From NCBI RefSeq assembly GCF_006345805.1, contig NC_043000.1, positions 10,478,001 to 10,542,000 on the forward strand: DNA of 64,000 nucleotides, read 5' to 3'. Position numbers and translations under genes: made by a program. The notes under the pieces were generated by a model. That model saw only the letters and a list, made by a program, of their open reading frames with translations. It made no database searches and was not told the DNA's origin. Origin of the DNA: Octopus sinensis (lineage: Eukaryota). Of the stretch, positions 1,863 to 60,648 are shown in pieces; positions within the stretch are counted from its first letter, which is position 1, and each line of letters starts with the position of its first letter.

Positions 1863-3160
1863 TCAGGTCATCCCATAAGTTCTGTCAAGTCATCCCATAA
1901 GTTCTTTCTGAATTTTGAATAAAGAAAACAAGTGATCAAATATTATATTTAATTGAAATTTAATCATCAATGTACTTTCCCTGATTATCTATGACTTCCT
2001 TCCATCAATTTACAAGCTTTTTAATCCCATCAATGTAAAACTCTTTTGGTTTCAAAGCAAAGAACTCTGAAATGTCAGTTTTGACTGCCTCCTGGCTTGC
2101 AAAAGTTATGTCCCCCAAATGATTCTGTAAACTATGAAACAAATGGTAGTCTGAAGGAGCAAGGTTGGGAGAATAAGGTGGATGAGGAATTTTTTCCCAA
2201 CCAAGCTCTTCGATCTTCTGTGATGTGATCTTTGCAATGTGAGGTCGCTCATTGTCCTGACGAAACATCACTCCTTTTTGATTCACTAAAGCAGGTCTTT
2301 TTTCCTTCAAAGCTTGGTTCAAATGCCCTAACTGCTGACAGTAGACTGGAGCATTGATTGTTGCATTAGGTGGTAACAATTCAAAGTGAATTACTCCTTT
2401 GCAATCCCATCTGATAGAGAGAACCTTTTTCCCATGAAATTCCCTTCTCGATTGTGGTTGAGCTTTTTCCCTTTTACCAAGTCACTGTTTATGACATTTA
2501 ATATTTCGATAGAAGACACATTTTTCGTCACCAGTCACAAATCTATCGAAAAAGGGTGAAATAAGTTCGCGAGAATGGAGAGAAGAGCAGATGTCAACTC
2601 GGGATTTGCGGTTGCTTTCGGACAATTCATGAGGCACCCATTTTCCAAGTTTAGGAACCGTTCAAGTTGTTGAAGACGATGATGAACAGTTATATGGTTT
2701 GAACTTAGCTTTATTGCCAATTCTTCGACTGATAATGCAGGATTTTTTTCAAGTAATGTCTCAAGGAGCTTATCATCAAACTCAACTGGACATCCTGTTC
2801 GATCTTTATCTTCAAGATTGAAATCTCCACTTTTTGATTTTGCAAACCATCTTCTACAAGTTCTTTCATTCAAGCATTCTTTCCCAGTGTATGTTTCGAG
2901 TCGCTTCGACTGCAGAGTTTCCTTTTTTGTACTCATGAAGCATTATGTGCCTCAAATGCTCTTTGGATACTTCCATGTTAGAAAGGGTTTTAATCAAGGA
3001 AATTTTAATTCTATTATTCTGTAAAATAATATTTAATTAGTTTAAATGTACACAAATGCATAATAGTAATTTTTAATTCCATTAGACATTCTAAAATACT
3101 ATTAAATTTAATTCTATTTTAAAAAAGGTAAAATCCGATAGAATTTATTGCATGACCTGA
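1863..3160 (-). mobile_element. Defective mariner (DD34D-type) transposon
   Basis: TA-flanked TIRs TCAGGTCATCCCATAAGTTC / GAATTTATTGCATGACCTGA. The broken transposase runs from ATG 2976 (MEVSKEHLRHIMLHEY) through QDNERPH and HPPYSPNLAPSDYHLF to about 1961, with frameshifts and stops. Confidence 0.9.
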
Positions 3161-5216: not shown

Positions 5217-8200
5217 GTGTGTGTGTTACCTTGTCTTGATAACATGCTGTAGTTGTAAAATGAGCATCACCATCACACATGTGGTGTCCTTAATTTTTAA
5301 TCTTCCATAGAAACATGTTGAGCCACAGGGAAATATTACCAAGAAAAATTTCAATTGGCCAAATTACATATGGATGGAAGGAAATTATTTTTGATATAAC
5401 ATGTTAAATTACTAACAGCAGAAAAAAGATTAAAAAAAATTACATTATAAAATCTAGTTAGATGGCACTTTTGCTCTCCATGTTCTGGGTACCATGGAAC
5501 ATGACTTACTCTCAGTTCACATAAACATATATTATTATCATCATTTTAATGTCCACTGTCCTGCTGACAGAATTTGTTGGGGCAGATTTTCTGCAGATAG
5601 ATGCCCTTCATGTTGCTAACCCTCCAACAGCTATGGGAAGATATTACCTTGCTTGGAAATAGGAGAGGGTTAAAGAGGGGAGGGCCATCTGACCTTAAAA
5701 AATCTGCTTCAACAGATTCCATTTGACTCATGCAAGCATAGTCAAGTGGATGCTAATTGATGATAATGATGGTGATGAATAGCTTTGAGAGCTGCATTAT
5801 GGCCACCTTTGCTACAGATCATTTGTAAAAGATAGAATGCAGTTTTCTTTTCTATCTAAATTATGCTTTTTATTCTGATTTTGTAATTAATGGTGTAGAT
5901 TATAAATTCTTTTCTTTAGTCAAGGTTTTTTTTTTTTTTCTCTCTTTCGAAACTTTGTATAATTTCTTCATACATCTGAAATATTTTTTTCTATTTTCAC
6001 AGGTTTGGTCCTTCAACATATCAACAAATGTTTGGACAAAGTTAAAAACAACAGGCCCAGCACCAACGCAGGTTGCTTCTCATTCAAGTAAGTCAAACAA
6101 TAGCATTTTGGAAATCATCTGCCTTTATTTTATATTTGTTTCTATGTTAAAATCACCTAAGAATTTAACTGCTTTGTCTTTGAGCCTGTTTGCAACAATT
6201 GGCAAATCACCCTCAAATCAGTGTTTAGAAATTAAAAAATGAACACAGTAAGCAATATACAAAAAGGCAGGATGGTTTTAGCTGGAATGTTTTTGATTCT
6301 AGATCTACTTAATCAGCCCTGGCCTGGTGCTAAACAACAACTGCTGACATTGTATCTTTAATAATAAAACTCAGTGAATATTTTATTGGATTAAAATGTC
6401 CAGCCATTTATATAATCTTATAGTGGCTATATATATATGTATGCATAATTGTCATCACCATTTAACATCTGTTTCCCATGCTAGCATGATGAGTGGGATG
6501 TTTTAACTGGAGGTTGCAAGCCAGAGGACGGCACCAAGCTCCAGAATCTGCTCTGGCATGGTTTTTATGACTGGATGCCCTTCCTAATACCAACCACTTT
6601 ACAGAGTGTACGGGGTGCATTTTACATAGCACCAACACCTGTGAGGTCACCAAGTAACATGCACAACAAAACCCTTCAACTGAGGTGGGATTTAATATTA
6701 AGGGAGATGGCTTGGTGCCTGGTGATGAGAAGTTAAAATATGATGGAAGGGAAGAAGCATGTGTCAAGCAATAGAAAAAGCAGAGAGAGGAGACAGTGTA
6801 ATTGCGGGTCAGAGATTGTAGGGTATCTGAGACTGACTTTATGTCCTTCAGCCTCCATTCTGGGAAGAGGGTGTTTTCAAGTTAAAGGAAAGATGGAGAC
6901 GCATTGTGCAACAAAATGGTTCATATTTGGTTGATTAAAAATGTAATGGCAAGTATTTATTGACCTCTTTCTTTCCTTTAAAAATCGGCACAAACTTTCC
7001 GGACAACCCAATATATGTGTGTGTGTGTGTATCTGATAATTGTGATACATCTACATGTGTGTAGGTGTGTGTTTTTGAAGATTTATATGTATCATCATCA
7101 TCATCGTTTAACACCCAATTTCTATGCTGGCATGGGTTGGACAGTTTGACATGGCAAAGCTGTCCTGACTCCAATTCTCTGTTGTGGCAAGGCTTCTACA
7201 GCTGAATGCCCTTCCTAATGCCAGCCACTTAACAGGGTGTACCAGGTGCTTTTAACATGCCACCAGCACAAATGTGTTTACACAGCACCGGCACAGGTGC
7301 TTTTTAAGTGGCACCAGCACCTATATATTTATGTATGTATACTCTTTCTTTCTTTCTTTCTTTCGATAATGATATTAATGAAATCAAACCAAAAAGTGAT
7401 ATTTTGAAATAATTTTATATGTACATTTCTGGTCTGTGTAATATATGTTAGTTAGTTAATTTTTTGGCTCAAAAAGCAAAAAGCAAGGCCATGTAAGGGG
7501 ACATGGAGTTATGTACAGGGTGGTGTTCATGTAAAGAGTTCAGGCCACTTGAGGTCAAGGGAGACTTTGAACCGAGCGGTCGTCGGCATCTTCACCATCT
7601 CGTCTGGTAGCTTATTCCACGGATCCGCAACCCAGACGGAGAAAGCCCCTCTCCTTCGATTGAGATGAAATCGTCGCAGATAGAGCTTTTCGGAATGACC
7701 CCGCAGCCGACGCTCTGGAGCAGGAGTGAAGAACAGCTCTTTCGAGAGGTTACACTTTCCGCTTATGATGTTGTGAGCAAGAATGAGATCTCCACGGCGT
7801 CGTCGTTTTTCTAGAGAATAAAGGTCGAGCATCTTCAGCCTTTCTTCATAAGACAAATTCTTGAGACCAAGAACCATGCGGGTAGCCAGCTTCTGGACTC
7901 TTTCGAGATGCTGTATGTCTTTGAGGAGATAAGGAGAAGAGGCTTGAATCCCGTACTCCAATATGGGTCTCACCAGCGTGACATAGAGCGGTAGGAATAT
8001 GGCTGCTGTGAGCATTCTGAATGACAGTAATGCATTTATAATGTAAGACCACTAAATATGTATGTGTATGTGTGTATCCATGAATTGTATGAGTTAATTT
8101 TCTTATATTAAATTAACCCTTTTACTAAATGCATCCCTAAACAATGATGATCTGTTCTCGTTTAAGTGTGTCTTCTTGGAAACAGCATAATTGTGTTTGG

Positions 8201-11200
8201 TGGATCAGGCCTGCCATTTGGCATGAACAGTAGCAATGACATTTATCAACTCGATCTTCTCAAGCAAGAATGGCAACTTATTCCCTGCCAACCATTAAAT
8301 GGTGATGCTGCAAATTTCCCTTCAAAGAGATATGGACATGTAAGTCTTGTGTATAATTTCATTGTTTGGCCATTTGTTTAATGTCTGATTTTTCCATGCT
8401 TGAACGGGTTTGGTTGGAGAGTTACTGGATCTTTACCTTTTGACCTACAAATTTAAAAAATAATTTTTTTGTAACTAAACACTTTCAAACTTCAGACACT
8501 GGTAGAATGTGTCATATAAAACATGTTTTACTCTTAGCATTTTTGAGAAAAACTTATATTTACGAAGATATTTCACCTTAAATTTCTCATATTTCGGTAA
8601 TTTCAACCAATCAATGACGTGTATTCAGCTGAATAAAATTACTACTGTTGTTTGTCAACAAAAACTTCCGGCGGTGTATTTTTCGTTTGTCACTGTTGTT
8701 TATGACAACCCTAACCCTAACACCTTAAAACCAGTACAAACGCACAAATGATGTCATAAATAACAGTGACAAACGAAAAATACACTGCCGATAGTTGTTG
8801 TTGAGAAACAACAGCAGTGATTTTATTCAGCTGAATACACGTCATTGATTGGTTGAAATTGCCAAAATATGAGAACTTTAAGGTGAAATATCTTCGTAAA
8901 TACAAGTTTTTCTCAAAAATGCTAAGAGTAAAAGATGTTTTTTATGACACATTCTACCAGTGTCTGAAGTTTGAAAGTGTTTAGTTACAAAAAATTATTT
9001 TTTAAATCTGTAGGTCAAAAGGTAAAGGTCCGAGTTACTTGCGGAGCAGGATTTTACAGTTGAATGTTCTTGTTGTCAACCCTCACCTGCTTTGCCAGCA
9101 TGGTCACAGTCCAATAACTAAAACAAGTGAAAGATATTGTAAGGTTCTGAAATTTTGAGTTTGGGATATTCTTATTGTCTTCTGTATATCTGATAGGAGG
9201 AAAGAGTTGACAGCATGATCTACTTGACAAGTTCATCTTGCATTTTGTATTTCTATTGTGTAATTGTGTTATACAATCGTGCTATACAAATATGAAGGCG
9301 GCGAGCTGGCAGAAACGTTAGCACGCGGGGCGAAATGCGTAGCTGTATTTCGTCTGCTGTTACGTTCTGAGTTCAAATTCCGCCAAGGTCAACTTTGCCC
9401 TTCATCCTTTCAGGATCGATTAAATAAGTACCAGTTATGCACTGGGTCGATATAATCAACTTGATCCGTTTGACTCTCCTTGTTGGTCCCCTCTGTGTTT
9501 AGCCCCTTGTGGGTAGTAAAGAAATAGCTATACAAATCTGTGTTATATAATTGTTTGTCTTTTTTTCCAGACTATGCATCCAATTGACAATTACATATAC
9601 ATCTGTGGTGGTACAGAAGGTACAATTTACATGTTGGATCTTTACCGTCTTGAACTTAACACAAAATCTTGGGAATATATTGAATGTAAAAACCCGCCAG
9701 AACCAAGGTCAGATATTGATCTTCTGTACAGTTTTGTATTTATGTTGGTTTTACTGAACAATTACTTTATTGCTAAATTCATTAAATGGCCATTTTTTTT
9801 TTTGTGCAATTTAACCAGGCTATCAACATGTTGTTGGCTTAACTTTACAATTACTCTTTTCTCGATTTATGCTAATTTCAGTTGTTGATCATCAGTTCTC
9901 CTTAAACATCATTTTCATTGTTGACTGTAACAGCTATAATAATAATAATAAAAATAATAATAATAACAGTTTCAAATTTTGGCGCAAGACCAGAGATTCC
10001 AGGGAAGGTGGCGGGTAAGTCAATTATACAGATGAAATGCCACTAAGCATTTTGCCTGGCATTGTAACAATTCTGCCAGCTTGCGATAAATGATAATGAT
10101 AACAACAATAGTAATAACAATAATAATTATAGAAATAATAATTAATAACGATTTCTTTATTATCTATATACCACAAGGACAATGGATGAGGGCCATTGCA
10201 AGGGAAAAGAACTACTGAAATAATAGAGGTTTACATAGAAAGGACAGCTACCTAAAGCCAATCAAAGAGACCCACAGACCTAGGATTACTCTTACTACAA
10301 ATTTAAACTGCTCTTTCTCTCAGCTGTATTCTCTAGCCTATAGCCAGATGCTAAGAGTAAGCTTATTCCTCTGAGCCATACTTGTTACTATCATCCACTT
10401 TCCAACAAATTTACAGTAGGGCAGTACCTCTCTCTTTACCATAACCTTTCTCCACATGGTTCTTGAAGACATTCATGACAGCTCAGTCAAAGAGGAACAT
10501 CTCAGTCTTCAGTCCTTTCAGTTTTGTCCTGCATACAATGTTTTTTGCCGCAGTCACAAATCATAGAAAACTATCTACCCTTCTTGATCAAAGGAAAGTG
10601 GAAGGGTGATCTTCATTTTTGACTCAGCTGCTAGCCAGATATGTCCTACGCATAACAACACCTGCTCAACATAACTCCTTAACTTTGCATTATTTGGACA
10701 CTTATAAAGTGCATGCAACTATTTTCTTGCTCTATATGCATCTCAAACAGGTCTGGCTGATAACACTATTGCACCTATAGAGTTAATCCTGAACAGGCAA
10801 TATCACCCCTTTCAACAGCCAAATTAGTGATTTCTAGAAGTTCTCTATAGTCTTCAAGTTGAAAGTTCTTCAGATTAGATTGTTCAGTTGATTTTAGCAT
10901 GTCCAATGTTTTCCTAAGAATGTTGTTTTTGTCCATTACTGATTCATCATCATCATCGTTTAACGTCCGTTTTTCGTGCTAGCATGGGTTGGACGGTTCG
11001 ACCGGGATCTAGGAAGCCAGGAGGCTGCACCAGGCTCCAGTCTGATCTGGCAGTGTTTTTACAGCTGGATACCCTTCCTAATGCCAACCACTCCGTGAGT
11101 GTAGTGGGTGCTTTTTACGTGCCACCAGCACAGGGGCCAAATGAGGCTGGCAAATGGCCACGATCAGTTGGTGCTTTTACATGTCACCGACATGGACGCC

Positions 11201-14200
11201 AGTCAGGCGGCGCTGGCAACTACCACGTTCAGATGGTGCTTTTAACGTGTCACCAGCACAGGTATCTTAACTACAATTTCCATTTGATTAATTCAAGAGT
11301 TAACATACCACCTGCTGAATTTCCAAAATGATGGAGAAATGTGAGTGCCTAAATTACATTCTAGTACCAGATACTCAAGCTTGGTTTTCACTTGACCCAG
11401 GAATGCAGCTCTATCAAAAGATAAACAGTAGAAAAATGTGACTTACAAATGGCAACCATGCCTCACTGTCCGGCAATCTTTGTAGATGCAGCACCTTTAG
11501 CTCATGTTTGTGCATTATTAACCAACCACAATAATAATAATTGTTTCTAATTTAGACACACAATCAGCAGTTTTGAGAAGTGAGGGCTGATCAATAGTAT
11601 TGACCCCAGTACTTGACTGGTACTTCATTTTATAGACCCCAGAATGATGGAAAACAAAATTGACCTTATGAAAATTTGAACTCAGAATGTAAAGAATCAA
11701 AACAACTACCTCAAGGTATTTTGACTGATGCCCTAACAATTGTGCCAATTCTCTTTCCATTCATTTTTTCCAGTTGTAAGTGGAAAAGATTTTGTTAGGG
11801 TAATGATGTTTAAAGTTCTATCAATTTGCATTAAATTGCAATAGGATTTCATCACCTCTACAATATTTCACTTACACAACACTGCACTAAGTTACTATGA
11901 TCAGTCCTTTATCCTTTGCACAGCAACATTAGTGATGCTTGTTTAGTCAAGGGTCCACAGCAAAACCCAAAGTCTTAGTAAGTAGGAAAGCAGACAAATC
12001 ACAAATCTCTTCAAATAGATGTCCCTGCTCATTCTGTAGAAAAGGCATAGGTAATAACTCCTTAAGATGTACCTGGTGTAAGCTATGGACACATAAGAGG
12101 TGCAGCAATATCAGAAGAAGGTTAACAGGGAAAATAGTTTTTGTGTGTGAAAGGTGCACAGGTACAATTAATACCAAAATGTACAGAAAATAGACTCCAT
12201 CAAATGCCAGGTGGGAAAACTAATAGTTGATAGCTTCCGTTACCTAAGTGACCAAGTCAGAAGTGGAGGTAGATACTCTGAGAATGTAGCTGCTTGAATA
12301 AGAATAGGCTGGGCAAAGTTCAGAGAGCTCCTACTCCTGTTGGTAACAAAGGACCTTTCCCACAGAGTGAAAGGCAGATTGTACAGATGCCTGTATGCGA
12401 ACAGCTATGCTCCATGGCAGTGAAACATGGGCTGTGATCGCCAAGGACATGCAAAGGCTTGAAAGAAATGAAGCTCGTGTGCTTCGCTGGCTGTACAATG
12501 TCAGTGTGCATGCACAATAGAGTGTAAGCGTCTTCAGATAAAAATTGGTCATGTGATGCGATTGGACGAGGACAGCTGTGTAAAGAAGTGCTGATCTCTA
12601 ATGGTGGAGGGTAGACCCAGGAAGACATGGGATGAAGTGGTAAAGTGTGACCTTCAAACATTGGACCTCACAGAGGCAATGACTAGCAAATGAGACATTT
12701 GGCAATATGCTGTGCTTGAGAAGACCTGTCAAGCCAAGTGAAATTGTAATCGTGGCCAATGCCAGTGTCCTGTAACTGGCTCATAAAAAGTACCCCTTTG
12801 AACTTTGGATCTCACTGAGGTAGTGACAAGTGACCATGACTTTTGGCAATGTACTGTGCTTGAGAAGACCTGTCAAGCGAAGTGAGATTGCAGTAGTGAC
12901 CAATGCAGGTGTTTCATAACAGGCACCCATGCTGGTGGCACATAAAAAGCACCCACTACACTCTTGGAGTGGTTGGCATTATGAAGGGCATCCAGCTGTA
13001 GAAACCAACTTACCAGTTTTCAGTCAAACCGTCCAACCCATGCCAGCATGGAAAACAGACGTTAAATGATGATGATGATGATATGTGATAGGCTTCTCTT
13101 AGTTTCCGTCTGCTAAATCCACTCACAATGCTTTGGTTGACCCAGATCTATAGTAGCAGACACTTACCCAATGTACTGTGCAATAGGACTGAACCTGAGA
13201 CCACATGTTTGGGAAGTAAGTTTCTTAACCACACAGCCATGCCTGCTTCTAAATTGCTTCTGTTTTTTACTGAGAATATCACTGATTGTAACCGTTTTAC
13301 TACTGAATATTAATGACTGAATCTTACTTATTTTTATTTATTATATTTGATGAAATTCATTTGTCTGGTGAAGGAGCTGAAATCAATTAAATATGCCATG
13401 AATTTATTAATGACTGAATCTTACTTATTTTTATTTATTATATTTGATGAAATTCATTTGTCTGGTAAAGGAGCTGAAATCAATTAAATATGCCATGAAT
13501 TTTTTAACATGAAATTTTATATACATATTTTAAAAAAATCTTTTCATGTTTACATTGTAGATACCGGCATGAAACTGTAGTTGAGAGCAAAAAATTATAT
13601 ATTTTTGGAGGAGGTACCAATTTTTCTGTTTTTGATCTGATTAAGGTAATAGTTAAAATTAATAAATTTTTCTCCCCTATTCATTTCAGCTTTTTTTTTT
13701 ATTTCATTCATTGGATATACTGGGGCATTGCCTTGAAAGGTCTTTAATCAAACAAATCAACCCCAGTTCTTATGGGTTTTTTTTTTTCAAATCTGGTACT
13801 TGTTCTGTCAGTCTCTTTTGCTACAGAGTTGTAAACAAACCAGCCCTGGTTGTCAAGCAGTGGGAGATGGTCGCATACACACAAACACACACACAATGAT
13901 AGATTTCTGCACTGTTTCTTATTTCTTTACTGCCCACAAGGGGCTACACACAGAGGGGACAAATCAGGACAGACAAACGGATTAAGTCGATTATATCGAC
14001 CCCAGTGTGTAACTGGTACTTATTTAATCGACCTCGAAAGAATGAAAGGCAAAGTTGATCTCGGCAGAATTAGAACGCAGAACGTAGCAGCAGACGAAAT
14101 ACCACTAAGCATTTCGGCCGATGTGCTAACGTTTCTGCCAGCTTGCCGCCTTGTTTTCAGTGATTTCTGCACCGTTTCTTTCTACCAGATTCACTCACAT

Positions 14201-20200: not shown

Positions 20201-22328
20201 GCCTGCAGTCGCTGATTCCTATTTTCCTCTATTTCTTTCTCTGTATTCCCCATGTTAAGCTGTCAGTGGTTTTTATCTTTGTGCGGTAGGCAACTGGAAG
20301 TAGCATCTTATTGAGGAGACAACTATGTGGTTTATATCTAAATGTGGTGCATGTAAGCTAGGCAACTGATGGTGATATCTTAGAGGGAGACAACTGGTGC
20401 GTTTACGCGTGCGTGTAAGGGGAGACAACCGTCTATTTTGTGTGTCTGTGTGTTTGCGCGCGCAAGCACAACCAATTATATCTTCTAGTTATAGTTTACT
20501 TGAGTTGAGGAGGCGCAATGGCCCAGTGGTTAGGGCAGCGGCTCGCGGTCATAGGATCGCGGTTTCGATTCCCAGACCGGGCGTTGTGAGTGTTTATTGA
20601 GCGAAAACACCTAAAGCTCCACGAGGCTCCAGCAGGGGATGGTGGTGATCCCTGCTGTACTCTTTCACCACAACTTTCTCTCACTCTTACTTCCTGTTTC
20701 TGTTGTACCTGTATTTCAAAGGGCCGGCCTTGTCACTCTCTGTGTCACGCTGAATATCCCTGAGAACTACGTTAAGGGTGCACTTGTCTGTGGAGTGCTC
20801 AGCCACTTACACGTTAATTTCACGAGCAGGCTGTTCCGTTGATTCGGATCAACCGGAACTCTCATCGTCGTAACCGACGGAGTGCTTCCACACACTTGAG
20901 TTGAATCTGAATGAAGCTCAACTGAACTGAAACCGGAACCATTTGGTTATCAAACCTCTATGTTCTCTTCCCATAAGATATAACCTAATGTATGTTCTCT
21001 CTCCAGTTTATAGCCTCATGTGTTTTGCAGCTAGGTGTTTATCACCATCACCACCATCATCAGTTAACGTCCTTTTTCCCATGCTAGCATGTGTTGGACG
21101 TTTCAACTTAAACTGATGAGCTAGAGGGTTGCACCAAACTCTGATGTCTGCTTCAGTATGGTTTCCACAGCTAGATGCCCTTTCTGATGCCAACCACTTC
21201 ACAGAGTGTACTGGGTACTTTTATCATGGCTCCAGCATCGGTCGGGTCAACAAGTAACTTTCTAGGCAAGATCCCTCAACTGAATGGGGTACAGTATCGA
21301 TGGTTATGAAAGGGTGATAGTTTATAACCTCAAAATTGTTTCTTAGAGCAATACTCGAGATTTATTCTGATAGAGAATTAACATTTAATAATGGTCTTAA
21401 ATACGTCTTTTATCTTTTACTGGTTTCAATCATTAGACTACAGCCATGCTGGGACACTGCCTTACTGAACTTTTAGTCAAATGTATCGACCTTAGTACTT
21501 ATCTTTTTAAAACCTGGTACTTATTCTACCAGTCTCTTTTGCTGTACTGCTAAGGTACATAGACATAAACACAACACCGGTTGTCAGGCTGTGATGGGGG
21601 ACAGCCTCAATCACAACACACACACACTTATATATAATGCAACAGGCTTCTTTCAATTTTCATCTGTCAAATTCACTCACAAGGATTTGGTCATCCCAAG
21701 GCTATAGTTGAAGACACTTGCCCAAGGTGCCATGCTGTAGTATTGAACCGAGAACCATGTAGTTGGGAAGCAAGCTTCTTACCACAGCCATTCCTGTTCC
21801 TATATGTTATTTAATATAAAATAAGGCGGCGAGCTGGCAGAAACGTTAGCACACTGGGCGAAATGTTTAGCAGTATTGCGTCTGTTGTTGCGTTCTGAGT
21901 TCAAATTCCGACGAGGTCGACTTTACCTTTCATCCTTTCGGGGTCGATAAATTAAGTACCAGTTACACACTGGGGTCGATGTAATCGACTTAATCCGTTT
22001 GTCTGTCCTTGTTTGTCCCCTCTATGTTTAGGCCCTTGTGGGCAATAAAGAAACATATATGTTATTTAATCATATTTTCTTTTCTTTTCTTTATTTCTCT
22101 CTTTTTATTCAGAATGGTTGCATGTATTTATTTGGTGGTGTTACTGAAAATGAACAAAGAGTTAACACACTATTTAGAATGCAACTGGATGTACCAAGCT
22201 TACAAGAAATGTGTTGGAGATATATTTGTCATTATAGTTCTCATTTATACTTGAAGAAAGCAAGTGAACTTCGAGAAATTGGTATTCCTTCACACCTGAT
22301 CAAGAGAATGACTAATTGTCTACTATAG
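3517..22328 (+). CDS. KLHDC10: Kelch domain-containing protein 10 (CRL2 substrate receptor), 5'-partial; join(3517..3632,6003..6087,8167..8339,9571..9707,13561..13645,16507..16573,16734..16781,18344..18480,22113..22328)
   Basis: Spliced ORF with kelch repeats ([72 protein letters not shown]) and a C-terminal BC-box/Cul2-box ([16 protein letters not shown]). All introns are GT-AG and phases are consistent. The start codon lies upstream of the window. Confidence 0.93.
4312..4553 (-). mobile_element. tRNA-derived SINE with V-domain-like tail
   Basis: A box TGGCTTAGTGG and B-box-like GTTTTGATTCC, then GATGGACTGGCGTCCCATCCAG; the tail is related to the copy at 22631-22919. Confidence 0.7.
4826..5053 (-). 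mobile_element. SINE family B (core GACTTTGCCTTTCATCCTTTCGGGGTCGATAAA)
   Basis: Other copies at about 9296-9526, 13921-14151, 21825-22053, 29445-29625, 41560-41765, 44150-44358, 47750-48500 (three copies) and 53980-54211. Confidence 0.85.
5054..5213. repeat. (TA)n/(TACATA)n microsatellite
   Basis: Direct observation. Confidence 0.95.
6003..6087 (+). CDS. KLHDC10: KLHDC10 coding exon
   Basis: cag|GTT..TCAA|gtaagt; [28 protein letters not shown]. Confidence 0.9.
7448..8020 (-). mobile_element. 5'-truncated CR1-clade LINE (ORF2 C-terminus and 3' UTR)
   Basis: Open frame [58 protein letters not shown], typical of CR1 ORF2 ends; short (TAAC)n tail. Confidence 0.88.
8167..8339 (+). CDS. KLHDC10: KLHDC10 coding exon
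   Basis: aag|TG..CAT|gtaagt; [31 protein letters not shown]. Confidence 0.9.
8427..9031. mobile_element. Foldback/MULE-like MITE with about 285-bp TIRs
   Basis: Long inverted arms beginning GGA(T/C)CTTTACCTTTTGACCTAC; exact 8-bp TSD GAGTTACT at 8419-8426 and 9032-9039. Confidence 0.9.
9296..9526 (+). mobile_element. SINE family B, full length
   Basis: GGCGGCGAGCTGGCAGAAACGTTAG..GAGTTCAAATTCC..GTAAAGAAATA. Confidence 0.85.
9571..9707 (+). CDS. KLHDC10: KLHDC10 coding exon
   Basis: ccag|ACT..CCAAG|gtcaga; [34 protein letters not shown]. Confidence 0.92.
10150..10940 (-). mobile_element. Degenerate L1/Tx1-like LINE 3' fragment
   Basis: Broken minus-strand translation resembling the C-terminal zinc-knuckle region (..LPVQD..TCLRC..MH..CP), followed by an (ATT)n-like tail. 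Confidence 0.4.
10944..11290 (-). mobile_element. RTE-type LINE 3' end or derived SINE (family C) with (GAT)n tail
   Basis: Matches the 3' end of the RTE at 11950-13083. Other copies lie at about 6450-6700, 7090-7320, 14477-14750, 17686-18110, 18636-19095, 21050-21300, 35540-35750, 37735-37945, 42320-42730 and 53210-53460. Confidence 0.8.
11950..13083 (+). mobile_element. Degenerate RTE-clade LINE 3' portion with PHD-like zinc finger
   Basis: [35 protein letters not shown], then [35 protein letters not shown]; 3' UTR ends in (GAT)n. Confidence 0.8.
13308..13502. repeat. 97-bp tandem duplication (2 copies)
   Basis: tattaatgactgaatc..gccatgaatt starts at 13308 and at 13405; one substitution. 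Confidence 0.92.
13561..13645 (+). CDS. KLHDC10: KLHDC10 coding exon
   Basis: gtag|A TAC CGG CAT GAA..AAG|gtaata; [28 protein letters not shown] (too short for the ORF track). Confidence 0.9.
15112..15354. mobile_element. Tigger/pogo-like MITE
   Basis: TA|CAGTAATGCCT ... AGGTATTACTG, with internal CTCGTAAA repeats. Confidence 0.65.
15378..15700 (+). mobile_element. tRNA-derived SINE
   Basis: A box TGGCTCAGTGG, B box GAGTTCAAATCC, then TTCTTGAGCAAGACACTT core shared with the 4312-4553 copy. Confidence 0.75.
16121..16172 (-). ncRNA. Minimal type I hammerhead ribozyme motif (Penelope-associated)
   Basis: Minus strand reads GTCT-CTGATGA-AGGGATAT(loop)ATATCCTA-GAA-ACAGCTGT-A-AGAC. It has an intact core, 4-bp stem I, 7-bp stem II, palindromic stem III and a GUA cleavage triplet. 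Confidence 0.72.
16507..16573 (+). CDS. KLHDC10: KLHDC10 coding exon
   Basis: tcag|ATT..AATG|gtcagt; [22 protein letters not shown]; phase fits both neighbours. Confidence 0.85.
16734..16781 (+). CDS. KLHDC10: KLHDC10 48-nt coding exon
   Basis: tcag|GT..CATT|gtaagc; [16 protein letters not shown]. Confidence 0.88.
18344..18480 (+). CDS. KLHDC10: KLHDC10 coding exon
   Basis: acag|AT..CCT|gtaagt; [37 protein letters not shown]. Confidence 0.92.
20509..20893 (+). mobile_element. Young tRNA-derived SINE with 11-bp TSD
   Basis: A/B boxes TGGCCCAGTGG / GTTTCGATTCC, CpG-rich; TSD ACTTGAGTTGA at 20498-20508 and 20894-20904. Confidence 0.85.
22113..22328 (+). CDS. KLHDC10: KLHDC10 terminal coding exon with BC/Cul2 box
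   Basis: tcag|AAT GGT TGC ATG TAT; [39 protein letters not shown]. Confidence 0.92.
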   Translation, partial: NGCMYLFGGVTENEQRVNTLFRMQLDVPSLQEMCWRYICHYSSHLYLKKASELREIGIPSHLIKRMTNCLL

Positions 22329-23396: not shown

Positions 23397-23407
23397 AATA
23401 AAATAAA
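23397..23407 (+). promoter_or_regulatory. Candidate KLHDC10 polyadenylation signal (overlapping AATAAA hexamers)
   Basis: aataaaataaa about 1.07 kb after the stop. The sequence is AT-rich, so this may be chance. Confidence 0.35.
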
Positions 23408-24295
23408 TTAATATCCTCATTATGAAAGAAAAGGATTTTTCTAGAAACTTTTCCACTTCAGGTTTTGGAGAAATGAATGTTTCATTTTTGTTACAGTTAC
23501 ATCAAAATTGGGGCATTTTGATGCCAGAGAAATTTGGATACAGTCTTTTGGGATCCAATCAATTACTTGGCTTTGTTTTTATGTTCATTAGAGTGGAAAA
23601 TCCTTGTTCGCAAAGGTAGGTTGTTGCAAAAGGCAGCAACTTTTTGACTGCCTCCTCATGCCAGGAGAAAAATTTCTATCATAACAAGGAACACATTTTT
23701 AAATATAATTTCACTTAAGTCTAATGAGTCTTCATTTTTACACCCACTTGGGGTAATTTACCCCTGGTCCAAAGAATCTCTCAACTCAAGACTTGCAGTT
23801 CATACTGTAGCTGGCAGTTCACTCTCTTCAAGATATTTGCCAATGAGGGACTATTTTTTAAAATAAAAATCAGTGCTAGGTTGTCATGTTGGCTTTTTTG
23901 ATACTTATTGTTCCTCATATAGTATGTCTTCTATCAAGCTTTTCTGGAGATTATATACTAAAGGTGCTGAGAACTGGATGGTAAACATGCACAGAAAATC
24001 ATAGCAAAGAGGGGCTCCTCATCTAGCTTGGACAATGTGAAACAAAAGGACAAACAACTTGTGTGTGTGTATGTGTTCATAGATGAACAAGAGGAAGAAA
24101 AAGGAGAAAAGTACTCGGTGCATGTAATAGAGTTTATTCATTAATTCTGGAGTAAAACTTTACCATTTCAGTTACCTTGAAGTATATATAAGAAATAGTG
24201 GATGAGGGCAAACTTACTGTAGAGATGGATATTTAGTTGCTATTTCTAGCAGGTCAAGCAACCACATAAATGGTACTTTATTGTTGATTACAATA

Positions 24296-25929
24296 TCTCT
24301 TATTATAAAAGGCAGATTTTATCTGCCTCCCTTTGTAACTTATAGAAATCTACAATATAGGATTTCTTCAATTACAATTTACCTAGCACTTTTTAAGAGT
24401 AGAATGCATCAGGTCATGCCAGGCCCAGTTTTTAAAATTTAAACTCCAATTAAGCAAAATTTACAGAAAACTCACATTCTGGTGTGTATGTCAAATGCTT
24501 TTCTTAATGTGGTTTACACCACACGCACACGCACACACACAGTGTGCAACGAATAAAATGAAAGTAAATAGCGACAGAGTGATTTGAGGAAGACTAAACT
24601 GAAAGTATTTAAACCACTACTCAAAAAATAAAAAAACACAGCAAACAGAAACAAATAAATACATAACGATTTACTCCTCACACAATTTCTTCAATTAGAG
24701 TGTACCCATGATTTTTCAGAGTACTTCAGTGGGTGATGCCATAAAAAATTTCTTTCAATTTTACCACCAATTAAGACAAAATTCGAGAAAACTCAATATT
24801 TTAACATTTCACTCCGAAAGCATTGATGTACATGTGTGCGTGCGTGAGTGTGTGTGTGTCATTCCTCACACACACGCATACACATACATATATGAGAGTG
24901 GCAAACACAAACGTTTCAAACAACTACATACAAACACGTGTGTGTTTGTTATTAGTAAAAAAGGCGCCAAAACACAACTCACTTATCATTCCAACACATT
25001 TGCAAAGACACATGGACGGTGGAATTGCTATAACAATACAGAAAAGGTAAATTGGTTTTTATTTTACTCTGTATATATTTTATTATATAATATTATATAT
25101 AGATATATGTATATATAATTGCAGTATGAAACAGTGTTTATGTATAAACAGACGACACTTATATATAGTTATTATAATAAGAGATTAATAAATGTATGCA
25201 TCCGTTTAACCCTTTCGTTACCAAGCCGCCCGAATTTACCTATTCATATTTAAATGAGAATATCAGAGTAAATCTCTTTAGTACATTCGTGAAAACACGT
25301 ATTATACTTCGTAAACACTTCAACTACAGTTTTGTACAAAAATCGAAGTGTAATTTTAATTCCGTGAATTATGGGAGATTTTTTTCCGAAATTTGTTCCT
25401 ATTGTGTTTTCAAAATTTGTAATTCTGACAAAAAATGGATACGAATTTCATTATATCAAGCAGCGAGTCAGAATTCAAAGGATTTTCTACTGAAGACCTT
25501 CATAAATCTAACTCTATGACTGAAAAAAAAAAGCATCTTTATATAAGAGTGAAGTTGTGTGTCTGTCTCCTACGATTTAGATTCCTAACTACTCCCACAT
25601 TTTGCGGTGCAGTTTAACCAAAACCGGGTATCTTATAGTCGTGATTCATATCGAGCCCTTCTGGGTATTAGCGTGTGTCTACAATGAGTCTACGATTTTA
25701 AAAAAATTTACCATCATATTTTTCCATTTTAATGCATTTTTTTCGCTTTTATATAAGGGAAGTAACTCTCTAAAAATATCTACGATGTGTCAACAATTAA
25801 AAAAAAATTTACCTTAATTTTTTTTCAATTTTTAATGCATTTTTTTGCTATTTTTTGGCTATAACTCTCTAAAAATGCTTATATAGTTATTTCCCTTACA
25901 ACCCGAGCAACGCCGGGCGATACTGCTAG
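24296..25929 (+). mobile_element. Non-autonomous Helitron, copy 1 (1634 bp)
   Basis: A|TC 5' end; 3' hairpin CCCGAGCAACGCCGGG then CGATACTG CTAG|T; inserted at an AT dinucleotide with no TSD. Confidence 0.85.
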
Positions 25930-26053
25930 TCCTCTAATAAATATGAATTTCTTTAATGTTTTACTTCAAGGAAAAGTTTCCTATATTGTACCTGCAATTA
26001 ACAACTTCACTTTTGTCTTAGCCAAAAAGTCAATTAATACAAATTCTACTTAT

Positions 26054-26432
26054 AGGCGCAGGAGTGGCTGTGTGGTAAGTAGCTTGCTAACCAACCACAT
26101 GGTTCAGTCCCACTGCGTGGCATCTTGGGCAAGTGTCTTCTGCTATAGCCTCGGGCCGACCAATGCCTTGTGAGTGGATTTGGTAGATGGAAACTGAAAG
26201 AAGCCTGTTGTATATATTTATATATATATATGTGTGTGTGTGTTTGTCCCCCTAGCATTGCTTGACAACCGATGCTGGTGTGTTTACGTTCCCGTCACTT
26301 AGCGGTTCGGCAAAAGAGACCGATAGAATAAGTACTGGGCTTACAAAGAATAAGTCCCGGGGTCGATTTGCTCGATTAAAGGCGGTGCTCCAGCATGGCC
26401 GCAGTCAAATGACTGAAACAAGTAAAAGAGTA
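26054..26432 (+). mobile_element. SINE family A, full length
   Basis: GGCGCAGGAGTGGCTGTGTGGTAAG..TTGGGCAAGTGTC..(TG)n..GACTGAAACAAGTAAAAGAGTA. Confidence 0.88.
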
Positions 26433-26462
26433 TAATATTAGTATTTAAAGTATTATAATCCA

Positions 26463-28077
26463 CTAGCAGTATCGCCCGGCGTTGCTTGGGTTGTAAGGGA
26501 AATAACTATATAAGCATTTTTAGAGAGTTATAGCCAAAAAATAGCAAAAAAATGCATTAAAAATTGAAAAAAAATTAAGGTAAATTTTTTTTTAAATCGT
26601 TGACACATCGTAGATATTTTTAGAGAGTTACTTCCCTTATATAAAAGCGAAAAAATGCATTAAAATGGAAAAATATGATGGTAAATTTTTTTTAAATCGT
26701 AGACTCATCGTAGACGCACGCTAATACCCAGAAGGGCTCGATATGAATCACGACTATAAGATACCCGGTTTTGGTTAAACTGCACCGCAAAATGTGGGAG
26801 TAGTTAGGAATCTAAATCGTAGGAGACAGACACACAACTTCACTCTTATATAAAGATGCTTTTTTTTTTCAGTCATAGAGTTAGATTTATGAAGGTCTTC
26901 AGTAGAAAATCCTTTGAATTCTGACTCGCTGCTTGATATAATGAAATTCGTATCCATTTTTTGTCAGAATTACAAATTTTGAAAACACAATAGGAACAAA
27001 TTTCGGAAAAAAATCTCCCATATTTCACGGAATTAAAATTACACTTCGATTTTTGTACAAAACTGTATTTGAAGTGTTTACGAAGTATAATACGTGTTTT
27101 CACGAATGTACTAAAGAGATTTACTCTGATATTCTCATTTAAATATGAATAGGTAAATTCGGGCGGCTTGGTAACGAAAGGGTTAAACGGATGCATACAT
27201 TTATTAATCTCTTATTATAATAACTATATATAAGTGTCGTCTGTTTATACATAAACACTGTTTCATACTGCAATTATATATACATATATCTATATATAAT
27301 ATTATATAATAAAATATATACAGAGTAAAATAAAAACCAATTTACCTTTTCTGTATTGTTATAGCAATTCCACCGTCCGTGTGTCTTTGCAAATGTGTTG
27401 GAATGATAAGTGAGTTGTGTTTTGGCGCCTTTTTTACTAATAACAAACACACACGTGTTTGTATGTAGTTGTATGTAGTTGTATATGTATGTGTATGCGT
27501 GTGTGTGAGGAATGACGCACACACACTCACGCACGCACACATGTACATCAATGCTTTCGGAGTGAAATGTTAAAATATTGAGTTTTCTCGAATTTTGTCT
27601 TAATTGGTGGTAAAATTGAAAGAAATTTTTTATGGCATCACCCACTGAAGTACTCTGAAAAATCATGGGTACACTCTAATTGAAGAAATTGTGTGAGGAG
27701 TAAATCGTTATGTATTTATTTGTTTCTGTTTGCTGTGTTTTTTTATTTTTTGAGTAGTGGTTTAAATACTTTCAGTTTAGTCTTCCTCAAATCACTCTGT
27801 CGCTATTTACTTTCATTTTATTCGTTGCACACTGTGTGTGTGCGTTTGCGTGTGCTGTAAACCAGACTAAGAAAAGCATTTGACATACACACCAGAATGT
27901 GAGTTTTCTGTAAATTTTGCTTAATTGGAGTTTAAATTTTAAAAACTGGACCTGGCATGACCCGATGCATTCTACTCTTAAAAATGCTAGGTAAATTGTA
28001 ATTGAAGAAATCCTATATTGTAGATTTCTATAAGTTACAAAGGGAGGCAGATAAAATCTGCCTTTTATAATAAGAGA
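26463..28077 (-). mobile_element. Non-autonomous Helitron, copy 2 (1615 bp), inverted relative to copy 1
   Basis: Reverse complement of 24296-25929 with the same TC..CTAG ends and an AT target. The mirrored ORFs in the track are identical or nearly so. Confidence 0.85.
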
Positions 28078-28114: not shown

Positions 28115-28760
28115 TTAACCCTTTTGTTTCCATATTTGTATTGAAATATACTGCTTTGTTTCAGTTAATTTCAAAAATAATGAAGAACTAGCACTATGAC
28201 TCAGCGTTGCCGTGTCTAGTGCTAGTCAAGCATATTTGTTCTTTCATGAAAATCCCGCTCTCTTGTCATTCACTTGGTCTAACTCGTTAATTATTCCCTG
28301 GATTTCTCAAATCAAAAAAGCGTGCACCTTTGAAAGCCAAAACACATGATAATGTGTCTTTGCAAAACACAAAAATGCACTGAGTCATACAGACTGTCTG
28401 CAAATATGCACGCGCATTCAACTGTTGGGCATAAGGGGTCGGTTTATTGATTTTTTAATGGCTTTCTCGGGTGACTGGGGAAATGAAAAAAACTTCATGA
28501 CCACCCTCAGACAGTTTTGAAAGCCCATAGAAAATGCAAGCCTTTTACGTGAAAAACTGTGGATTTGTATAAAGGACACAGATACACGGACATTTTGCCG
28601 TTTATAGATATAAAGATTTAGTAAAATAAAAATTGGCATAAATCTGGTGTTTGGAATATGAATTACCATGAAATTTTGGTTCAAGGTTTTAATTTAGATC
28701 TCTTTAAAACAAAATCTGTATCATAGAGTTAGTGGTGGCAGGTTGATGCCAAAAGGTTAA
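28115..28760. mobile_element. piggyBac-like MITE (TTAA-CCCTTT .. AAAGG-TTAA) hosting the short Helitron
   Basis: TTAACCCTTTT at the left and AAAAGGTTAA at the right; related fragments at about 17550-17685, 39900-40175 and 50490-50712. Confidence 0.55.
28188..28616 (-). mobile_element. Short non-autonomous Helitron (429 bp) nested in a TTAA-flanked MITE
   Basis: Minus strand A|TCTTTATATCTATAAAC .. GACACGGCAACGCTGAGTC ATAGTG CTAG|T. It splits the host repeat at GAAGAA|TTTAGTAAAA, which is contiguous (in reverse) at about 17620-17645. Confidence 0.78.

Positions 28761-34132: not shown

Positions 34133-60648
<26,516 letters not shown>

What the first reader, a model, noticed from the sequence alone, without database searches (positions are those of the whole stretch)
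24296..28077. Tail-to-tail Helitron pair forms a 3.8-kb near-perfect fold-back between two convergent 3' ends
Seen: two 1.6-kb copies of one element in opposite orientation with a 533-bp spacer. They differ only by scattered substitutions and a few indels. Identity stops exactly at the TC and CTAG termini, and each copy sits in its own A|T site, so these are two independent insertions rather than a segmental inverted duplication. Established: TC..hairpin-CTRR ends with AT targets define Helitrons, and coleoid cephalopods have extensive ADAR A-to-I editing of dsRNA. Inference: local hopping created the pair. Read-through from either KLHDC10 (+) or NAMPT (-) would give a 1.6-kb RNA duplex, a potential hyper-editing or endo-siRNA source, or a termination barrier between the genes.
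Basis: partly seen in the sequence, partly recalled or inferred. Interest (0 to 1): 0.72.

Follow-up and report, generated by a model that had tools for sequence, protein, structure and literature searches.

The report
Facing Helitrons that patch each other
Between two octopus genes, two copies of a common rolling-circle transposon face each other 533 bases apart; they carry the marks of two different subfamilies yet share a patchwork of letters found in none of 120 other copies, likely because they overwrote each other in short patches after inserting separately, a known kind of DNA upkeep, with no RNA role shown.

Summary
The repeat is real in the assembly: arms 24296-25929 (+) and 26463-28077 (-), 97.6% alike, 533-bp spacer, each A|TC...CTAG|T. 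Both are non-autonomous Helitrons of a dispersed family (21,996 exact 3' ends; 453 copies with this middle module; Rep-helicase elements share both ends).

A simple local hop is not supported. Over the first 560 bases the arms fall in different subfamilies (AU p=0.001), and distant copies match better over the full length. The middle is different: both arms carry one interleaved mix of the two subfamilies' letters, seen in 0 of 120 other copies; the 930G+974T pair is in 3 of 453 copies genome-wide.

Best reading: two separate insertions, then two-way, short-patch gene conversion between the arms. An assembly artefact is not excluded. Close Helitron pairs are common here (8 of 99 gaps under 1.5 kb, about 1-2 expected).

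The pair lies 2 kb past the KLHDC10 stop and 6 kb past the NAMPT stop; an RNA duplex is untested. Conversion between neighbouring transposon copies is known (Alu), and this scan noted it before in other genomes.

The parts
24296..25929 (+). Arm A: non-autonomous Helitron, 1,634 nt, A|TC...CTAG|T; 5' half of subfamily S1a type
26463..28077 (-). Arm B: non-autonomous Helitron, 1,615 nt, A|TC...CTAG|T; subfamily S2 marks at element positions 212-233 and 598-624
25930..26462 (.). 533-nt spacer between the two 3' ends
26052..26434 (+). Dispersed short repeat in the spacer, 76-90% like other copies in the window; SINE label recalled
   Evidence: 884-1270, 34950-35329
25020..25674 (+). Homogenised middle of arm A (element 725-1379): shared sites at 25020-25037, 25225, 25269, 25477, 25585, 25624, 25674
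26718..27372 (-). Matching homogenised middle of arm B
24507..24528 (+). Unconverted subfamily-diagnostic cluster (element 212-233): A is S1 type, B is S2 type
24893..24919 (+). Unconverted structural block (element 598-624) that differs between S1 and S2
25536..25929 (+). Inner ~394-nt module with its own TC start; occurs alone as a small Helitron at other loci
   Evidence: hits starting at element 1240-1245
25902..25917 (+). Subterminal hairpin 12 nt before the CTAG end; weak, and arm B has one stem mismatch (25905 equivalent)
22032..22328 (+). Open frame holding the last coding exon and stop of KLHDC10, 1,968 nt before arm A
34133..34237 (-). Likely last coding exon and stop of NAMPT, about 6.06 kb before arm B; placed by a recalled motif
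   Evidence: upstream exons
28187..28616 (-). Helitron-like element of another family; its CTAG end lies 110 nt from the 5' end of arm B, same orientation

Best explanation
Two non-autonomous Helitrons with the marks of two different subfamilies face each other across a 533-bp spacer and share an interleaved mix of both subfamilies' letters, likely because they inserted separately and then overwrote each other in short patches, in both directions, by gene conversion between the inverted arms. Shown: the termini, the AT targets, the dispersed family, Rep-helicase elements with the same ends, the subfamily split at the 5' side and the shared mosaic. Inferred: arm A began as an S1a copy and arm B as an S2 copy; the second likely landed near the first because this family tends to insert beside its own copies; pairing of the arms (fold-back or repair-coupled) then homogenised most of the differing sites. 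The exchange was likely early or has slowed, because most later point changes are private to one arm. The pair is likely a neutral passenger; an RNA duplex would need read-through of 4-6 kb past the KLHDC10 stop or 6-8 kb past the NAMPT stop.
For: Different origins: element 1-560 rejects a sister pair (AU p=0.0013); whole-length tree joins them in 0 of 200 bootstraps; arm B is 8th for arm A and arm A 3rd for arm B among 40 scored each. Shared middle: B is A's best non-self hit over 25195-25675 (859 vs 850 bits; 40 of 1,389 candidates scored). 930G+974T occurs in 3 of 453 copies genome-wide: A, B and one short-type copy that lacks the other shared sites. The haplotype 930G-974T-1182A-1290C-1329C-1379T is in 0 of 120 other copies (two duplicate rows dropped). 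Of 10 blocks that separate 5 S1a from 31 S2 copies, 8 are the same in both arms (5 S1a letters, 3 S2 letters, alternating at 930/974/1290/1329/1379) and 2 still differ. One S1a plus one S2 parent (L002 or L007 with L031) leaves only 4 letters unexplained over 304 informative columns in both arms. On six sites, 119 of 122 copies are within 1 change of a subfamily type; A (2), B (3) and L103 (2) are not. Private differences sit 2 and 7 bases from homogenised sites (1381 next to 1379; 718 next to 725), which a plain collapse of the arms would not leave (inference). Conversion between neighbouring Alus within about 10 kb is reported (PMC8230782, passages).
Against: All haplotype evidence comes from one assembly; no read spans two diagnostic sites. 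The sister grouping over 660-1378 has 87/88 support, is not starred, and that interval was chosen after seeing the matrix; over 660-1634 the tree neither joins nor rejects the pair (p=0.34). Distance alone is weak: 200 of 7,376 random pairs are as close (2 or fewer changes) over 913-1380. Some sites recur by chance: 1182 and 1379 are CpG changes (1182A in 4 of 120 others), 1329C is in 2 of 31 S2 copies, 513T in 2 of 31, and 41-42 in 3 of 31, so the firm minimum is about four tracts (725-742, 930, 974, 1290-1379). Other mosaic copies exist without a known partner (L005, L016, L052). Arm A shares 1381T and 1388A with distant L022, unexplained. Two other close pairs (L092 inverted, L094 direct) show no sharing. 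Only 122 of at least 453 copies were read.
Confidence: 0.66

Rival explanations
1. Local hop: one arm was copied next to its parent, and the 5' side of one arm was later replaced from distant copies or by end-swapping.
For: Neighbours in this family are often kin: L093 (direct) is identical over 913-1380; L208 (head-to-head) shares 2 variants absent from 120 others, against 4 of 7,376 random pairs. Close pairs are enriched.
Against: It needs arm A to be a rare mosaic first, then two or three more tracts in arm B, all from S2 donors, a minority type (33 of 120 others carry 930G). Helraiser showed no clustering near donors in 701 re-insertions (PMC4778049 section 10).
Confidence: 0.12
2. Assembly or polishing artefact: the insertions are real, but reads of the two arms, or of two haplotypes, were mixed into a mosaic consensus.
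For: A random per-site mix of two parents is what mixed pile-ups give. No read-level check of the middle was possible. Only one junction was touched by independent data, with 25 bases on the element side, under the tool's 31-base rule.
Against: Private differences persist 2-55 bases from homogenised sites. The inverted pair L092 in the same assembly keeps a pure S1a arm. A contig of run X4 (organism B) matches 24246-24320 with no difference.
Confidence: 0.13
3. One-step fold-back at insertion: the incoming single strand of the second Helitron pairs with the inverted resident copy on the same strand, and short-patch mismatch repair fixes each mismatch one way or the other.
For: Donor direction alternates at 39-50 bp (930/974; 1290/1329/1379). 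Most old differences are homogenised (8 of 10 blocks) while about 9 later substitutions are private. Helitrons move by a rolling-circle, single-strand route (PMC4778049, passages).
Against: One locus only. Repeated ordinary conversions give the same picture. The inverted, different-type pair L092 shows no mosaic.
Confidence: 0.06
4. Functional RNA element: read-through from KLHDC10 or NAMPT folds into a 1.6-kb duplex that is edited, diced or ends transcription, and is kept for that. The listed confidence is for a selected function; incidental editing of rare read-through would be unremarkable.
For: The arms would pair at 97.6%. Octopus CNS has over one million hyper-edited sites, and nearby inverted repeats are the usual ADAR targets in animals (PMC5625713, passages).
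Against: The pair is intergenic; AATAAA lies at 23397 and 23862 before arm A and several minus-strand signals lie before arm B. The arms are young, ordinary copies of a very large family, and similar inverted pairs occur elsewhere.
Confidence: 0.03

Closest known systems
Canonical Helitrons (Helraiser/Helibat1; PMC4778049, passages and section 10 read)
   Same: 5' TC, 3' CTAG, AT target, subterminal hairpin about 11-12 nt from the end; composite build with an inner 5' start.
   Different: These copies code for nothing; the hairpin is weak. The family clusters beside its own copies, whereas Helraiser showed no clustering near donors.
Non-allelic gene conversion between neighbouring Alu elements (PMC8230782, passages; Aleshin and Zhi 2010 only as cited there)
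   Same: Neighbouring copies of different subfamilies become hybrids; the effect is strongest at short distance.
   Different: A rolling-circle DNA transposon in a mollusc. Both arms appear changed, and the donor alternates every 40-50 bp instead of one block or monomer being replaced.
Arm-to-arm conversion in human Y palindromes (PMC3723533, search listing with start of abstract only)
   Same: Inverted arms homogenised by conversion.
   Different: Arms here are 1.6 kb, arose from two insertions, and are drifting apart (97.6%), not held above 99.9%.
Helitrons inserting near or inside other Helitrons in maize (PMC3288121, passages)
   Same: Clustering, nesting and multiple termini.
   Different: That passage concerns nesting and termini, not tail-to-tail pairs or exchange between neighbours.

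Membership tests
Canonical Helitron (non-autonomous) | 5' TC and 3' CTRR termini | tested here: met
   Both arms TC...CTAG; 38 of 38 family loci end in CTAG
Canonical Helitron (non-autonomous) | Insertion between A and T, no target duplication | tested here: met
   A|...|T at both arms; 38 of 38 followed by T, 34 of 38 start A|TC (2 start in TA runs, 1 T|TC, 1 truncated)
Canonical Helitron (non-autonomous) | Subterminal hairpin | tested here: inconclusive
   CCCG/CGGG stem at the expected place, -4.5 kcal/mol, but 61 of 200 shuffles fold as well
Canonical Helitron (non-autonomous) | Ends shared with a Rep-helicase element | tested here: met
   4 of 20 PF14214 loci match arm A's first 520 nt at 79-89%; 3 of them (L191, L202, L203) also show a matching 3' end after the frame. 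L191's 1,556-aa frame has Helitron_like_N and PIF1
Canonical Helitron (non-autonomous) | Dispersed copies with the same boundaries | tested here: met
   21,996 exact 3' ends; 453 with the middle module
Canonical Helitron (non-autonomous) | Empty target site at this locus | tested here: inconclusive
   No listed contig of 4 runs showed the empty site; the output was cut
Non-allelic gene conversion between neighbouring transposon copies | Copies of separate origin outside the tract | tested here: met
   AU p=0.0013 for element 1-560; blocks 212-233 and 598-624
Non-allelic gene conversion between neighbouring transposon copies | Shared haplotype inside the tract, absent from distant copies | tested here: met
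   0 of 120 others; 3 of 453 for two sites
Non-allelic gene conversion between neighbouring transposon copies | Unconverted state seen in an orthologue or another haplotype | not testable with these tools
   No relative genome is held; contigs break inside the repeat
Local hop (daughter next to donor) | The two copies are each other's nearest relatives over the full length | tested here: not met
Inverted-repeat ADAR or endo-siRNA substrate | One transcript covers both arms, with A-to-I clusters or small RNAs | not testable with these tools
   No listed holder on record as RNA; only contigs of guessed RNA runs were offered

The most novel reading that the evidence does not exclude
Helitrons of this family pair with resident copies while they insert: the incoming single strand anneals to a nearby inverted copy, lands beside it, and short-patch repair of the fold-back heteroduplex rewrites both copies at once. 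This would be one homology-guided mechanism behind the clustering of Helitrons, their mosaic subfamilies and this letter-by-letter two-way patchwork.
Probability: 0.1. Interest if true: 0.7.

Novelty: new member of a known kind. Interest (0 to 1): 0.33.

Why it matters
As it most likely stands, this is a well-resolved but ordinary case: subfamily marks let each patch be assigned to a donor arm, showing that neighbouring Helitrons exchange sequence in both directions. That distorts dating and subfamily trees of these elements, and it warns that near-identical neighbours are no proof of local hopping. With about 22,000 copies of the 3' module and frequent close pairs, this genome allows a direct test of whether orientation and distance drive such exchange. 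If the fold-back-at-insertion reading held, it would add a homology-guided step to rolling-circle transposition. Three paper searches (listings only) showed no title or abstract on conversion between inverted Helitron neighbours; the library lacks most subscription papers.

Tried and rejected
Segmental inverted duplication: rejected, since identity stops at the termini and the flanks differ.

Simple local hop: rejected on full-length ranks and the 5' tree.

Spacer inversion by crossover between the arms: considered because of sites 1404 and 1442, but these are homopolymer-length variants with no subfamily signal. The old repeat at the left flank ends before the junction and gives no orientation. 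Left open.

L068 as parent of arm B: rejected, 34 substitutions.

RNA: no RNA holder listed. One guessed-RNA contig set (X16) had no cover of the unique left flank 24115-24212 and held family pieces from other loci; this is no evidence either way. Runs X4 and X7 also lacked cover there. Only 391 bases around arm A's 5' junction were laid, so the spacer, arm B's junctions and the middle sites have no read or contig check.

No genome-wide count of tail-to-tail pairs was obtained; clustering rests on the first 100 listed ends and 60 loci.

Open frames inside arm A have no Pfam match (3 of 3); a piggyBac-like origin of element 913-1240 is recalled only. No earlier notes near this place.

Full report
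Observation. The window holds one long inverted match, 24290-25930 against 28083-26462, 97.56% over 1,642 columns. The arms are 24296-25929 (A, +, 1,634 nt) and 26463-28077 (B, -, 1,615 nt), with a 533-nt spacer, 18 substitutions and 5 gaps; both read A|TC...CTAG|T and the flanks differ.

What the element is. Searches of the window's genome with each arm gave full-length copies on many contigs (4,610 and 5,349 candidates, 40 scored each). Of 38 loci, all end CTAG|T and 34 start A|TC. The last 20 bases occur exactly 21,996 times, and 453 copies match a two-motif pattern in the middle. Of 20 loci fetched from 150 scored PF14214 matches, 4 match arm A's first 520 bases at 79-89%, and 3 of these also show a matching 3' end. 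One has a 1,556-aa frame with Helitron_like_N and PIF1. The element is composite: its last 394 bases have their own TC start and occur alone. The hairpin sits where expected but folds no better than shuffles. It is a non-autonomous canonical Helitron.

Is it a local hop? Not over the full length. Arm B is the 8th non-self match of arm A and arm A the 3rd of arm B. The full tree joins them in 0 of 200 bootstraps, and positions 1-560 reject a sister pair (p-AU 0.0013). Arm A has S1a marks at 212-233 and 598-624; arm B has S2 marks there.

The middle is shared. Over 25195-25675 arm B is arm A's best non-self hit (40 of 1,389 candidates scored). The combination 930G+974T is present in 3 of 453 copies: A, B and a short-type copy on C13 that lacks the other shared sites. 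I added 60 copies taken in positional order from the 100 listed. Among 122 distinct copies (two duplicate rows of A and B dropped), the haplotype 930G-974T-1182A-1290C-1329C-1379T is in both arms and 0 of 120 others. Comparing 5 S1a with 31 S2 copies gives 10 diagnostic blocks. Eight are the same in both arms: S1a letters at 41-42, 513, 725-742, 974 and 1329, S2 letters at 930, 1290 and 1379. Two still differ. One S1a and one S2 copy as parents leave 4 letters unexplained over 304 informative columns. So each arm likely took letters from the other, with the donor alternating at 39-50 bp.

Limits of that reading. The sister grouping for 660-1378 is 87/88, not starred, and the interval was chosen after the fact; 660-1634 is undecided. 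Of 7,376 random pairs, 200 are equally close over 913-1380. Several sites recur at a few percent, so about four tracts are firm. Other mosaics exist in the family, and arm A's 1381T and 1388A match distant L022. Everything rests on one assembly. Against a collapse artefact, private differences lie 2 and 7 bases from homogenised sites, and the inverted pair L092 keeps a pure S1a arm. A contig of run X4 matches arm A's 5' junction exactly over 75 bases, but only 25 lie in the element, below the tool's bridging rule.

How unusual is the arrangement? Among the first 100 listed 3' ends, 8 of 99 gaps are under 1.5 kb, against 1.2 expected at genome density or about 1.8 at local densities; 2 of the 8 are tail-to-tail. 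Of 60 positional copies, 8 have another family 3' end within the 4.1-kb locus: 6 in the same and 2 in the opposite orientation. Of 5 close pairs with the full 913-1634 core, 3 show a link (this pair, L208, L093) and 2 do not. Maize Helitrons insert near or inside each other (PMC3288121, passages), while Helraiser showed no clustering near donors (PMC4778049 section 10). Helitrons are among recently active families in Octopus vulgaris (8 families, 178 insertions; PMC13282606, passages; supplement not read).

Genes and RNA. KLHDC10 stops at 22328, 1,968 bases before arm A. NAMPT's likely last exon stops at 34133, about 6 kb before arm B. Poly(A)-type hexamers lie before both arms. A duplex needs one transcript through both arms, that is read-through of 4-6 kb or 6-8 kb. 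Octopus hyper-editing is extensive, and nearby inverted repeats are typical targets in animals (PMC5625713, passages), so such RNA would likely be edited if made. Nothing here shows that it is made.

Mechanism and verdict. Shown: Helitron anatomy, two subfamily backgrounds, a shared interleaved middle, family-wide clustering. Inferred: separate insertions, then two-way short-patch conversion between the arms (0.66). Rivals: assembly artefact (0.13), local hop with later replacement (0.12), one-step fold-back repair at insertion (0.06), selected RNA function (0.03). Conversion between neighbouring transposon copies is known from Alu (PMC8230782, passages), and earlier scan notes describe inverted L1 and other pairs homogenised in this way (unchecked). 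This is a new member of a known kind. The fine two-way alternation is the one feature worth a genome-wide test. Interest 0.33.

Noticed in passing
window 8453-9006: Self-contained palindrome (255-nt arms, 93%, 44-nt loop with two CCCTAA units) between KLHDC10 exons at 8166-8378 and 13508-13744. As an intronic hairpin it is likely a surer ADAR substrate than the Helitron pair.
   Followed up: no
window 28115-28760: TTAA-flanked element with short CCTTTTG inverted ends (piggyBac-like, recalled) holding a 430-nt Helitron-like element of another family, 28187-28616 (-), whose 3' end is 110 nt from arm B.
   Followed up: partly
L093 (G000:C1:198859500-198865000): Direct pair of short-type copies identical over element 913-1380 but with 10 differences in the last 250 nt.
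   Followed up: partly
L208 (G000:C1:52174300-52179500): Head-to-head pair separated only by a TA run of about 160 nt, sharing two variants absent from 120 other copies.
   Followed up: partly
L092-L217, neighbour pairs: In 7 of 18 neighbour pairs both 5' ends are of one subtype whose exact haplotype makes up 36 of 135 ends; neighbours tend to be kin in this family.
   Followed up: no
L001-L038 flanks: Many copies sit in TA runs or directly after another Helitron 3' end (L013, L022, L033).
   Followed up: no
window 25206-25535: Module starting TTAA-CCCTTT with a short frame MDTNFIISSSESEFKGFSTED, resembling a piggyBac 5' end (recalled); no Pfam match.
   Followed up: partly
window 2008-2942 (-), 54372-55148 (+), 7530-8051 (-): Broken frames that read like Tc1/mariner transposases and a reverse-transcriptase tail, in introns; labels recalled.
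   Followed up: no
L191, L203: Rep-helicase frames with N-terminal STPR repeats and ends related to this family.
   Followed up: partly
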